Below the pieces are notes generated by a model. It made no database searches. It saw nothing but the letters and a program-made list of their open reading frames with translations, and had not been told where the DNA came from. The position numbers and the translations under genes are program-made. From Candidatus Saccharimonadota bacterium (GTDB taxonomy: Bacteria > Patescibacteriota > Saccharimonadia > Saccharimonadales > CAIOMD01), in assembly GCA_031973215.1 (NCBI GenBank), contig DALYDK010000004.1:12019-76018 (forward strand): a DNA stretch of 64,000 nt. The letters are read 5' to 3'. This document shows, piece after piece, positions 31,662 through 31,834 of this stretch; position 1 is the first letter of the stretch, and every line of letters begins with the position of its first letter.

Positions 31662-31670
31662 ATTAAAGAA

Positions 31671-31693
31671 TCTCAGCTTGTCTGAGGTTTTTT
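31671..31693 (+). terminator. rho-independent terminator of tRNA-fMet
   Basis: TCTCAG-CTTGT-CTGAGG followed by TTTTTT. Confidence 0.75.
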
Positions 31694-31816
31694 AATTGGT
31701 GATGGAGCTAGATTTGCTTCTGCGACTCGATAGCTTTAGCTAACGATAGTCGCAAGGTTCGGGCGCCAATAATTTGTCAGCAGTTGCTTGCAACGATGCC
31801 AAATTATGCGTAAATT
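31694..31816 (+). repeat. G+C-rich structured tRNA-trailing unit, copy C (body)
   Basis: Two-tier hairpin GCGACT-CGA-TAGCTTTAGCTA-ACGAT-AGTCGC. GGTTCGGGCGCCA (31756-31768) is identical to copy B. The GCAG..CTTG..CGA block lies 11 nt downstream, as in B. Confidence 0.7.
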
Positions 31817-31834
31817 GTCCTGCCCCGCATACCA
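31817..31834 (+). repeat. degenerate 18-nt copy of the tRNA-fMet 3' end (positions 59-76)
   Basis: GTCCTGCCCCGCATACCA versus tRNA GTCCTGCCCCCGCGACCA: 14/18 ungapped (first 10 and last 4 identical), 173 bp downstream of the original. The upstream TATGCG pairs with CGCATA. Confidence 0.7.

What the first reader, a model, noticed from the sequence alone, without database searches (positions are those of the whole stretch)
31662..31834. Copy C: a 155-bp unit after tRNA-fMet ending in a mini-helix version of the tRNA 3' end
After the tRNA-fMet terminator (31671-31693) comes a G+C-rich body. It holds a two-tier hairpin (GCGACT-CGA-TAGCTTTAGCTA-ACGAT-AGTCGC), the GGTTCGGGCGCC motif and a GTTGC-TT-GCAAC palindrome. 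It ends with TATGCG-TAAATT-GTCCTGCCCCGCATACCA. The last 18 nt copy tRNA positions 59-76: the first 10 and last 4 nt are identical. The four changed bases (CGCG to GCAT) are complementary to the ATGC just upstream, so a TATGCG/CGCATA stem with a CCA overhang can form. This is an internally deleted, acceptor-stem-like mini-helix. The ORF track's N-terminal extension of the next gene (31774-31875) runs through this region and is probably not coding.
Basis: seen in the sequence. Interest (0 to 1): 0.65.

Follow-up and report, generated by a model that had tools for sequence, protein, structure and literature searches.

The report
Decayed tRNA-linked repeat after tRNA-fMet
The stretch after tRNA-fMet is an old, partly decayed copy of a "tRNA-linked repeat", a small structured element known since 1978 from E. 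coli with no known function, and here it belongs to a large family in Saccharibacteria that no RNA database model detects.

Summary
The tail 31817-31834 really is a copy of tRNA positions 59-76: 14 of 18 bases match, and the 10-mer GTCCTGCCCC occurs only twice in 64 kb.

The CCA "mini-helix with compensatory changes" does not hold. It is weak (-4.6 kcal/mol, z -1.5), it is absent from the fold of the whole unit, and it is not kept in a second allele that lacks CCA.

Copy C is a diverged member of a family with more than 100 copies in metagenome contigs, probably Saccharibacteria. The copies sit after tRNAs of every kind. Their layout is: tRNA, hairpin terminator, 5' arm complementary to the tail, GAACC...GGUUCG helix, a three-tier hairpin with strong covariation, then a usually perfect 17-19 nt copy of the tRNA 3' end.

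Units occur in tandem, are present or absent between strains, and are swapped between near-identical strains.

The layout and the GAGAACC...GGUUCG motif match E. coli tRNA-linked repeats (TLRs, RtT RNA). The Rfam RtT model does not detect these units, so I call them a new variant of a known kind. Function remains unknown. The most likely route to expression is read-through of the tRNA terminator. The N-terminal ORF extension is not coding.

The parts
31587..31661 (+). tRNA(CAT), initiator-like (A11:U24, U1.G72), with encoded CCA. It is the gene the unit is linked to. Its promoter TTGACA-17-TAATAT lies at 31546-31574.
   Evidence: ARAGORN; Rfam tRNA 64.4 bits; promoter scan.
31658..31700 (+). 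Long palindrome centred on the terminator hairpin: ACCA + A-rich run + CTCAG cttgt CTGAG + T6 + TGGT. It acts as an intrinsic-terminator-like hairpin for the tRNA. In the family the palindrome always runs into NCCA on one side and UGGN on the other.
   Evidence: Read; the terminator scan lists this hairpin only on the minus strand.
31697..31721 (+). 5' arm of the unit. It is a degenerate inverted copy of the tRNA 3' end: TGGTGATGGAGCTAGATTTGCTTC against TGGTCGCGGGGGCAGGACTCGAACC, about 12 of 24 identical. In the MFE fold, UGGUG pairs with UACCA at the 3' end.
   Evidence: At family level the arm-tail complementarity is specific to the cognate tRNA (permutation p 1e-4 and 5e-5).
31722..31753 (+). 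Outer stem GCGACU/AGUCGC, inner hairpin UAGCU-UU-AGCUA, and a 3' bulge CGAUA that recurs across the family as C(G/A)UAG.
   Evidence: z -2.7. In allele 2 the inner hairpin becomes CAAGC-UU-GCUUG.
31756..31767 (+). GGUUCG, the family's invariant motif. In most members it is the 3' strand of the GAACC/GGUUC helix. The longer GGUUCGGGCGCC marks a subfamily shared with copy A, L104, L109 and L209.
31769..31807 (+). P3, a three-tier hairpin. Pa is AUAAUUUG/CAAAUUAU; Pb is CA/UG; the internal loop is GCA opposite GA; Pc is GUUG/CAAC; the tetraloop is CUUG. The shape and loops match the family consensus, but the stem sequences differ.
   Evidence: CM R1 full-length match at 27.1 bits, E 0.001; family covariation score 0.463 against 0.132 in shuffles, 0 of 500 shuffles as high; fold.
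31817..31834 (+). Tail: a degenerate direct copy of tRNA positions 59-76 (14 of 18).
   Evidence: Intact members carry perfect 17-19 nt copies.
30792..30964 (-). Sister copy B after tRNA-Met 31040-30965. Terminator at 30954-30927, arm at 30926-30910, GAGAACC at 30909-30903, GGTTCG at 30879-30874, perfect 18-nt tail at 30809-30792. A second copy of the terminator follows at 30779-30752.
   Evidence: (D20). It is absent from the otherwise identical locus L007.
57239..57443 (-). Sister copy A. A pseudo tRNA 3' fragment lies at 57443-57419, followed by a terminator and the unit (GGTTCG 57321-57316). The tail at 57256-57239 matches 17 of 18 nt of the 3' end of tRNA-Asn 63019-62945, which lies 5.6 kb upstream.

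Best explanation
Copy C is an old, partly eroded member of a family of tRNA-linked repeats (TLR-type elements).

Shown here:
- The family is a 120-180 nt module placed directly after tRNA genes of any identity.
- Its parts, in order, are: a hairpin terminator; a 5' arm complementary to the tail; a GAACC...GGUUCG helix holding a variable hairpin; a three-tier hairpin with fixed loops (RCA opposite GA, and a CUUG tetraloop); usually a small fourth hairpin; and a 17-19 nt copy of tRNA positions 59-76.
- The helices show compensatory changes. They also fold better on the tRNA-sense strand.
- Units are gained and lost exactly at the tRNA 3' end, form tandem arrays, and are exchanged between near-identical strains.

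Inferred:
- As shown experimentally for E. coli TLRs (RtT, RrA/B/F), the unit has no promoter of its own. It is transcribed from the tRNA promoter when the polymerase reads through the first terminator.
- The transcript folds into the conserved multi-helix RNA. Its 3' end is trimmed to the tRNA-identical tail by the normal tRNA 3' processing enzymes.
- New copies arise, and old ones are lost, by recombination between the tail and the identical 3' end of the tRNA gene. This could happen by unequal exchange, by Campbell-type insertion of an excised or imported copy, or by transformation. No element-encoded enzyme would be needed.

In copy C the tail (14 of 18), the 5' arm and the fourth hairpin have decayed, while P2 and P3 are still intact. 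What the RNA does for the cell or for itself is unknown, here as in E. coli.
For: Membership of copy C:
- CM R1, built from 63 metagenome units and no window sequence, hits the window only at A, B and C (50.7, 50.2 and 27.1 bits; next best 11.9).

Family and architecture:
- The metagenome scan returned more than 118 loci.
- About 70 hits have a same-strand tRNA ending 54-103 nt upstream, and these tRNAs cover about 17 amino-acid identities (Leu, Asn, Glu, His, Ala, Gly, Ser, Pro, Lys, Arg, Gln, Met, Val, Cys, Asp and others).
- In 39 units the unit ends in a perfect or near-perfect 16-19 nt copy of the cognate tRNA 3' end, starting at the last 2-3 nt of the T-loop.

Structure:
- For P3, 80.6% of cells are paired against 61% in shuffles. 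The covariation score is 0.463 against 0.132 (0 of 500 shuffles as high), and against 0.07-0.10 for shifted registers.
- P2 is more stable on the tRNA-sense strand in 28 units and on the other strand in 6 (p 1.4e-5). G.U pairs number 38 against 11.
- Arm-tail pairing is specific to the cognate tRNA (p 1e-4 and 5e-5).

Turnover:
- L007 is an empty site for copy B.
- Copy C exists as two very different alleles between about 100% identical flanks.
- In L104, a related Saccharibacteria MAG, a different unit with a perfect 18-nt tail sits between the same tRNA and the terminator plus remnant of a C-like unit.
- Tandem units are common.

Link to E. coli TLRs:
- PMC8144298 describes 18-19 bp 3' identity to the upstream tRNA or rRNA gene, 1-5 copies per locus, and transcription by read-through between T1 and T2.
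- The tyrT TLRs read GGGGAAGGAU-GAGAA(C/G)C-loop-GGUUCG...GUUGC..GCAAC-GA...-AUCCUUCCCCCACCACCA.
- The rrnB TLR has GCGGAU-UUGAAC-GUUGCgaaGCAAC and an 18-nt 5S tail.

No own promoter:
- No sigma-70-like promoter lies between the terminator and unit C.
Against: - No expression data exist for these organisms. A strong hairpin plus T6 precedes every unit, so sense transcription may be low.
- The Rfam RtT model does not hit the Saccharibacteria units (E<=5; E<=10).
- My core HMM and CM do not significantly hit E. coli TLRs. The link therefore rests on architecture and on the arm-GAGAACC...GGUUCG motif, and could reflect convergence.
- P3 alone shows no strand asymmetry: 35 G.U pairs against 54 A.C pairs.
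- Recombination on only 18 nt of identity is inefficient for RecA-type exchange. It also does not explain how homologous units acquire tails and arms that match many different tRNAs.
- The pattern of rapid turnover with decaying copies fits a selfish element better than a host function.
Confidence: 0.6

Rival explanations
1. This is a DNA-level element only. In this reading the unit is a miniature integrative cassette or an att-site scar. A host or trans-acting recombinase inserts it at the 3' end of tRNA genes. The conserved hairpins would then be a folded single-stranded DNA recombination site, comparable to integron attC or CTX-phage attP. In that fold the tail, terminator and 5' arm together mimic the double-stranded end of the tRNA gene. 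Any RNA made from it would be irrelevant.
For: - 17-19 bp direct repeats of the tRNA 3' end are the classic mark of tRNA-targeting integrases (my own knowledge of P4-type att cores).
- Insertion is precise and presence/absence is polymorphic.
- New units lie next to the tRNA, with older decayed ones further away.
- Tandem arrays occur.
- Cargo genes sit between the tRNA and the unit in at least 4-6 loci.
- A strong terminator upstream of every unit argues against a need for transcription.
- The palindrome tail/terminator/arm is present in all units.
- G.T pairs are also tolerated in folded single-stranded DNA, so the strand bias does not separate RNA from single-stranded DNA.
Against: - No integrase, transposase or reverse transcriptase recurs within 4 kb of units; the only recurring neighbour is the syntenic DivIC-like gene.
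- No recombinase lies in the 5.7 kb segment next to copy A.
- Homologous units carry tails for about 17 different tRNA identities. An attP-type site would have to be rebuilt for each one.
- E. coli TLRs are known to give stable processed RNAs (PMC8144298).
- E. coli TLRs also follow 5S rRNA, so a T-loop-specific integrase cannot be the general answer.
Confidence: 0.2
2. The last 30 nt (TATGCG-TAAATT-GTCCTGCCCCGCATACCA) would form an acceptor-like mini-helix with a CCA overhang. Compensatory changes would maintain it, and it would serve as a tRNA-like substrate for RNase P, RNase Z or CCA-adding enzyme.
For: - The 6-bp pairing exists in this allele.
- In allele 2 a GCGG/CCGC pairing involves the same part of the tail.
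- In the family, and in Rfam's RtT model, the tail start is paired and the last 8-11 nt ending in NCCA can stay single-stranded. A looser 'tRNA 3'-end mimic' idea therefore stays open.
Against: - The helix is weak: z -1.5, and 17 of 200 shuffles fold as well.
- It is absent from the MFE and centroid folds of the whole unit.
- Allele 2 and L010 lack CCA (ACAAT), and L010 breaks one pair without compensation.
- Intact members have exact tRNA tails and no local complementary hexamer.
- The helix overlaps the covariation-supported P3 base.
Confidence: 0.04
3. The region is coding. In this reading the next gene starts at TTG 31774, and the unit's 3' half encodes an N-terminal extension.
For: There is an open frame from 31774 to 31875, in frame with ATG 31876.
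Against: - Allele 2 strains have an in-frame stop 19 codons upstream of the ATG and an unrelated sequence before it, while the protein from the ATG onward is the same.
- Gene callers gave 192, 206 and 213 aa starts in different strains.
- The stretch is covered by the conserved RNA-type structure.
Confidence: 0.01

Closest known systems
E. coli tRNA-linked repeats (TLRs): RtT RNA of the tyrT operon (Rfam RF00391) and the rrn-linked RrA/RrB/RrF sRNAs (Egan & Landy 1978 and Rudd 1999, as cited in PMC8144298)
   Same: - They lie immediately downstream of a tRNA or rRNA gene on the same strand.
- They are about 130-180 nt long.
- The last 18-19 nt are identical to the 3' end of the upstream gene.
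- There are one to several tandem copies per locus.
- They often sit between two terminators.
- A 5' arm is complementary to the start of the tail (P1 of the Rfam model).
- The arm is followed by (GGAU)GAGAACC-loop-GGUUCG.
- There is an internal hairpin followed by GA (E. coli GUUGC..GCAAC-GA; copy C GUUGCUUGCAAC-GA).
- No function is known.
   Different: - The phylum is very distant (Saccharibacteria/CPR against Enterobacteria).
- The RtT covariance model does not detect these units, and my model does not detect RtT.
- The core after GGUUCG is a different three-tier hairpin with a CUUG loop.
- Each unit begins with its own palindromic terminator.
- Units are found behind about 17 tRNA identities, with much sequence diversity and subfamilies.
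- Hfq/CsrA binding, reported for the E. coli rrn copies, has no evidence here.
att-site duplications left by tRNA-targeting tyrosine integrases (P4-type islands), and integrase-less cis-mobilisable elements (CIMEs)
   Same: - They give 16-24 bp direct repeats made of the tRNA 3' end.
- Insertion regenerates an intact tRNA.
- Elements accumulate in tandem at the same tRNA.
- Copies can lack their own recombinase.
   Different: - The units are only about 150 bp and, in most cases, carry no cargo.
- No integrase is found nearby.
- The conserved part is a set of covarying hairpins rather than arm-type protein-binding repeats.
- The same scaffold serves many different tRNAs and, in E. coli, 5S rRNA.
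Dual-terminator and 3'-trailer sRNAs such as 3'ETS-leuZ (as described in PMC8144298)
   Same: These are non-coding RNAs made from the 3' trailer of a tRNA transcript, without a promoter of their own.
   Different: They have no copy of the tRNA 3' end, no repeat family and no conserved multi-helix scaffold.
tRNA-like 3' modules (mascRNA, tmRNA tRNA-like domain, viral TLS)
   Same: The 3' end resembles a tRNA acceptor end with CCA.
   Different: There is no acceptor stem or T arm of its own. The tail is a literal copy of the neighbouring tRNA, and CCA is lost in alleles of copy C.

Membership tests
tRNA-linked repeats (TLR), as defined in PMC8144298 | Lies immediately downstream of a tRNA or rRNA gene in the same orientation | tested here: met
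   Copy C starts 1 nt after tRNA 31587-31661. About 70 family members lie 54-103 nt (measured to GGTTCG) after a same-strand tRNA.
tRNA-linked repeats (TLR), as defined in PMC8144298 | 18-19 bp at the 3' end identical to the 3' end of the upstream gene | tested here: inconclusive
   Copy C matches 14 of 18, and allele 2 matches 15-16 of 18 with an indel. Copy B matches 18 of 18 and copy A 17 of 18 to tRNA-Asn. Most of the 39 scored units have perfect 17-19 nt tails. The feature is met by the family and eroded in copy C.
tRNA-linked repeats (TLR), as defined in PMC8144298 | One to five copies per locus (tandem arrays) | tested here: met
   Arrays are seen in L109, L113, L115, L144, L179, L193, L195, L199, L202, L211 and L215. 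Copy C is single. L104 has a new unit plus a remnant at the same tRNA.
tRNA-linked repeats (TLR), as defined in PMC8144298 | Transcribed with the upstream gene by read-through of a first terminator, then processed | not testable with these tools
   The dual-terminator layout is present for copy B and L104. No own promoter is seen for copy C. No RNA data are available.
tRNA-linked repeats (TLR), sequence and architecture of the E. coli members | 5' arm complementary to the tail start, followed by GAGAACC-loop-GGUUCG | tested here: met
   E. coli. Family: 48 of 95 units have NNGAAYC upstream of the invariant GGTTCG, and arm-tail pairing is cognate-specific. Copy B has GAGAACC...GGTTCG. Copy C has GGTTCG, but CUUCU replaces GAACC, as in a subfamily with GGTTCTGCGAC.
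Rfam RF00391 RtT RNA | Covariance-model score at or above the gathering score (45 bits) | tested here: not met
   There is no RtT hit in the window at gathering score, none at E<=10 around the three copies, and none at E<=5 in 9 canonical loci. In the same run, the positive-control E. coli TLRs scored 133-137 bits.
attL/attR scar of an integrase-borne genomic island | Direct repeats of the tRNA 3' end flanking an element that encodes a tyrosine integrase or lies next to one | tested here: not met
   The repeats are present. No recombinase family recurs within 4 kb of units, and none lies in 57.2-63 kb or around copies B and C. The window and loci cover only part of each genome, so a recombinase acting in trans is not excluded.
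   CCA and the stem are not conserved in allele 2 or L010. The helix is no more stable than shuffles and is absent from the MFE fold.

The most novel reading that the evidence does not exclude
TLR-type units could be self-propagating elements that need no protein of their own. In this reading the 5' arm acts as a base-pairing guide for the 3' end of an abundant stable RNA gene (tRNA, or 5S in E. coli). Insertion then copies a measured 18-19 nt of that target. The mechanism would be nucleic-acid-guided and shared by bacteria as distant as E. coli and Saccharibacteria. It would explain how one scaffold acquires matching arms and tails at about 17 different tRNA identities.
Probability: 0.12. Interest if true: 0.85.

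Novelty: new variant of a known kind. Interest (0 to 1): 0.5.

Why it matters
TLRs have been known in E. coli since 1978 and still have no function. They have been treated as an enterobacterial oddity.

Finding an abundant and diverse TLR-like family in the tiny genomes of Saccharibacteria has three consequences.
- The class is widespread, or it travels between lineages.
- More than 100 diverged copies are now available, which define a covariation-supported structure.
- The gain, loss and allele swapping seen between near-identical strains make the origin of the 18-nt tail testable.

There is also a practical side. These units cause false N-terminal ORF extensions, pseudo-tRNA fragments and possibly assembly breaks, and no Rfam model detects them.

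Tried and rejected
- **Rfam:** scans at gathering score and at permissive E-values gave no family for the units.
- **Viral contigs:** two motif scans gave only chance hits in high-GC phage DNA, none near a tRNA.
- **Group I introns of Patescibacteria tRNAs** (PMC13011429): these insert at position 35/36 and are unrelated.
- **Alternative hairpin GCUUG/CGAGC and a kink-turn reading of the GCA/GA loop:** rejected, because covariation supports GAAG/CUUC Watson-Crick pairs, and variants such as GGUG/CACC and GUUG/CAAC break the G.A rule.
- **18-nt tail as a reverse-transcriptase stop at m1A58, or a T-loop integrase crossover:** rejected as a general rule, because E. coli TLRs duplicate 18 nt of 5S rRNA.
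- **5' arm as a cDNA copy of the tRNA:** rejected, because the acceptor part, which would be copied first, is the least conserved.
- **Sequence-only profile (nhmmer):** it finds copies A and B but not C, and does not find E. coli TLRs.
- **A recurrent neighbouring enzyme:** none found.
- **Strain comparison upstream of copy A:** uninformative, because both contigs end about 60 nt before the pseudo-tRNA fragment.
- **Strand test on P3 alone:** not informative.
- **Literature searches for a Saccharibacteria description of these units:** nothing found.
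Full report
**1. The observation**

The window is AT-rich (about 36% G+C). It holds five tRNA genes: Lys 12464-12540 (+), Met 27859-27935 (-), Met 30965-31040 (-), Met(CAT) 31587-31661 (+) and Asn 62945-63019 (-).

- a hairpin (CTCAG/CTGAG, 31672-31686) with a T6 run;
- the two-tier hairpin GCGACT...AGTCGC (31722-31753);
- GGTTCGGGCGCC (31756-31767);
- GTTGC-TT-GCAAC (31783-31794);
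- the end TATGCG-TAAATT-GTCCTGCCCCGCATACCA (31805-31834).

The last 18 nt match tRNA 31644-31661 at the first 10 and last 4 positions. GTCCTGCCCC occurs only at those two places in 64 kb, against 0.01 expected.

**2. Sister copies in the window**

Copy B follows tRNA-Met 31040-30965 on the minus strand. It ends with a perfect 18-nt copy of that tRNA's 3' end (30809-30792). It also carries a second copy of the terminator.

Copy A (57418-57239, minus strand) follows a pseudo tRNA 3' fragment. Its 18-mer matches 17 of 18 nt of the tRNA-Asn 3' end, 5.6 kb upstream.

**3. Close relatives show turnover**

Ten metagenome contigs encode the identical DivIC-like protein that lies between the two tRNA-Met genes. 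Their flanks are about 100% identical to the window.

The interior of copy C nevertheless exists as two very different alleles.
- Both alleles share the terminator, the first about 35 nt, the outer P2 stem, AGGTTCG and ...CCCCGCA.
- The inner hairpin changes from TAGCT-TT-AGCTA to CAAGC-TT-GCTTG.
- The core is different, and allele 2 is 24 nt longer.
- Allele 2 and L010 end in ...CCCCGCAGACAAT, that is, without CCA.

In L007 copy B is missing altogether, and the tRNA is followed directly by the distal terminator copy.

L104 is a Saccharibacteria MAG whose DivIC protein is 82% identical. There, the same tRNA(CAT) is followed by a different unit with its own terminator and a perfect 18-nt tail. 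After that come the window's terminator and a remnant of a C-like unit.

Units are therefore inserted or deleted exactly at the tRNA 3' end. Newer ones sit next to the tRNA, and older ones decay further away.

**4. The family**

About 25 of these are chance hits in high-GC DNA.

About 70 hits have a same-strand tRNA ending 54-103 nt before GGTTCG. These tRNAs cover about 17 amino-acid identities (Leu, Asn, Glu, His, Ala, Gly, Ser, Pro, Lys, Arg, Gln, Met, Val, Cys, Asp and others).

In 39 units the unit ends with a perfect or near-perfect 16-19 nt copy of the cognate tRNA 3' end. The copy always starts at the last 2-3 nt of the T-loop.

The common layout is:
1. tRNA-CCA.
2. A palindromic A-rich/stem/T-rich terminator whose symmetry extends into NCCA and TGGN.
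3. A 5' arm that is an imperfect reverse complement of the tRNA 3' end.
4. (G/T)NGAACC.
5. A variable hairpin, often with a C(G/A)UAG bulge.
6. GGTTCG.
7. A three-tier hairpin.
8. A small hairpin followed by GCU.
9. The tail.
10. Often another terminator, or another unit.

In at least 4-6 loci, one or a few cargo genes lie between the tRNA and the unit. These include a methyltransferase, membrane proteins, and in the window a 5.7 kb redox-repair cluster.

No protein family recurs next to units apart from the syntenic DivIC-like gene. No integrase, transposase or reverse transcriptase was seen.

**5. Structure**

I aligned 63 non-redundant cores (A1). The three-tier hairpin reads: Pa, C, Pb, RCA, Pc, CUUG loop, Pc', GA, Pb', A, Pa'.
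- 80.6% of cells are paired, against 61% in shuffles.
- The covariation score is 0.463, against 0.132 in shuffles (0 of 500 as high) and 0.07-0.10 for slid registers.
- One pair (columns 23/43) shows GC, UA, AU and CG.

Tandem neighbours that the search pattern did not select show Pc variants GAUG/CAUC, GGUG/CACC and GGCA/UGCC. Copy C has GUUG/CAAC.

The GAACC/GGUUC helix with its variable hairpin is more stable on the tRNA-sense strand in 28 units and on the other strand in 6 (p 1.4e-5). G.U pairs number 38 against 11. P3 alone gives no strand signal.

Complementarity between the 5' arm and the tail is specific to the cognate tRNA (permutation p 1e-4 and 5e-5). It is imperfect, however, and it is absent in a subtype where a local hairpin replaces the arm.

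**6. Copy C is a member**

A covariance model built from A1, with no window sequence in it, hits the window at A (50.7 bits), B (50.2 bits) and C (31756-31820, 27.1 bits, E 0.001). The match to C is full length, and all pairs but one are formed. The next hit scores 11.9 bits.

The MFE fold of 31697-31834 contains P2, P3 and a closing UGGUG/UACCA helix.

Compared with intact members, copy C has lost the small fourth hairpin. Its arm is decayed (about 12 of 24), its tail is decayed (14 of 18), and no second terminator follows it.

**7.

- On its own TATGCG/CGCATA is -4.6 kcal/mol with z -1.5.
- It is not part of the MFE or centroid fold of the unit.
- It overlaps the base of P3.
- It is not conserved. 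L010 keeps TATGCG but has CGCAGA opposite it, and allele 2 has neither the hexamer nor CCA.

I read the four changed bases as decay rather than compensation.

In allele 2 strains an in-frame stop lies 19 codons before ATG 31876 and the upstream sequence is unrelated, while the protein is unchanged from the ATG onward.

**8. What is known**

No Rfam family reaches threshold on any unit.

The literature search led to E. coli tRNA-linked repeats. PMC8144298 summarises them as follows:
- 22 TLRs at ten loci, with one to five per locus;
- 18-19 bp of the 3' end identical to the 3' end of the upstream tRNA or rRNA gene;
- the rrn copies lie between terminators T1 and T2, are transcribed by read-through, are processed, and bind Hfq and CsrA in vitro;
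- the function is unknown.

I fetched the tyrT locus. Its four TLRs score 133-137 bits on Rfam RtT. They read GGGGAAGGAU-GAGAA(C/G)C-UUCGACCAA-GGUUCG-...-GUUGC..GCAAC-GA-...-AUCCUUCCCCCACCACCA.

The order of parts is therefore the same as here: an arm complementary to the tail (P1 in the Rfam structure), GAGAACC-loop-GGUUCG, an internal hairpin followed by GA, and a 19-nt tail.

The rrnB T1-T2 region contains GCGGAU-UUGAAC-GUUGCgaaGCAAC and an 18-nt copy of the 5S 3' end.

By my own estimate, the strict motif GGAU[GU]NGAA[CG]C-N(3-12)-GGUUCG carries about 27 bits. That gives about 0.07 chance occurrences in an E. coli genome, yet it is present in three of the four tyrT TLRs.

The RtT model does not detect the Saccharibacteria units, and my model does not significantly detect RtT. 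I therefore file the units as TLR-type elements but not as members of RF00391. Homology is likely but not proven.

**9. Mechanism**

Shown here:
- the architecture, and selection on structure;
- a tRNA-sense folding bias in P2;
- precise gain and loss at the tRNA end, arrays and allele exchange;
- the absence of an own sigma-70-like promoter for copy C and of linked enzymes.

Inferred by analogy with E. coli:
- expression by terminator read-through;
- processing to a structured RNA whose 3' end is defined by the tRNA-identical tail.

Inferred from the repeats:
- copies come and go by recombination between the tail and the tRNA end.

Three things remain unexplained: how one scaffold acquires cognate arms and tails at about 17 tRNA identities, why the duplicated segment is always 17-19 nt, and what the RNA does.

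A purely DNA-level recombination-site model is a serious rival. So is a guided self-insertion model.

**10. Verdict**

Copy C is a real feature, but in itself it is an ordinary, eroded copy. The interest lies in the family. It is a new and abundant variant of a known but unexplained kind of element, in a very distant lineage with small genomes.

Noticed in passing
window 57239-62945 (minus strand): The 5.7 kb segment between tRNA-Asn and copy A has higher G+C (0.40-0.43 against about 0.35). It holds an oxidative-repair cluster: DUF1905, an ArsR-type regulator, a cation-efflux fragment, thioredoxin, a DsbD-thioredoxin fusion, MsrB, MsrA and glutaredoxin. There is no integrase. It may be a cargo island inserted between the tRNA and an older unit.
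   Followed up: partly
window 57419-57500 (minus strand): A tRNA-like 3' fragment (GGTTCGAATCTGGTTGCGGGAGCCA) with no matching 5' half lies just before copy A's terminator. Two Logan contigs that carry the downstream gene end about 60 nt upstream of it, which hints at strain heterogeneity there.
   Followed up: partly
L104 3330-3640: In the related MAG the second tRNA-Met differs from the window's. A 5' fragment of the window-type tRNA (aaccactgagctacagccc) lies just upstream of it. A degenerate 45-nt copy of the tRNA 3' half, starting at the anticodon loop, lies about 150 nt downstream, with no TLR-type core between them. This looks like a different kind of tRNA-targeted insertion.
   Followed up: no
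window 28228-29280 (minus strand): This ORF of only 350 aa carries the N-terminal and actuator domains of a P-type ATPase and no phosphorylation or C-terminal part. It is conserved at this length in close relatives. It may be a truncated or split gene next to tRNA-Met 27859-27935.
   Followed up: no
window 31587 and 31658: The initiator-like tRNA(CAT) has U1.G72 instead of the usual bacterial C1xA72 mismatch, and L104 has the same. Other family loci have tails ending in GCAACCA (A72).
   Followed up: no
window 31677-31681 and many loci (e.g. L108, L121, L139, L161): The terminator hairpins after tRNAs repeatedly carry the loop (A)GCUUGUCU. P3 is capped by CUUG. This suggests a lineage preference for CUUG-type loops.
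   Followed up: no
L116, L172, L181 (around the pattern match): Three unrelated contigs share a conserved stretch of about 150 nt: GGTTCGGGGTTCAAATCCC..GCAGAAACTTGGTTCGAGATTTC...CAGCTATGATGA...GTCAGTGGGAAG.TGAGACGG.GAGGGAGAGGACT. It matched the search pattern by chance, is not a TLR-type unit, and looks tRNA-derived. Its identity is unknown.
   Followed up: no
L118, L158, L171, L186 (40 nt before the unit's terminator): Four loci share a conserved pseudo tRNA-fMet-like end, CCAATTCGAYYGTACYTGGGCAACCA, in place of an intact tRNA. Different cargo genes lie upstream, and in L118 an intact tRNA lies 1.4 kb away.
   Followed up: partly
L108 19-146 (minus strand): There is a sub-threshold AdoCbl riboswitch match (44.2 bits against a gathering score of 50).
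   Followed up: no
L113 1183-3800 and L165: TLR-type units follow tRNA-Ala of a 16S-tRNA-Ile-tRNA-Ala cluster. No 23S rRNA is found within the next 1.3 kb, so the rRNA operon appears unlinked.
   Followed up: no
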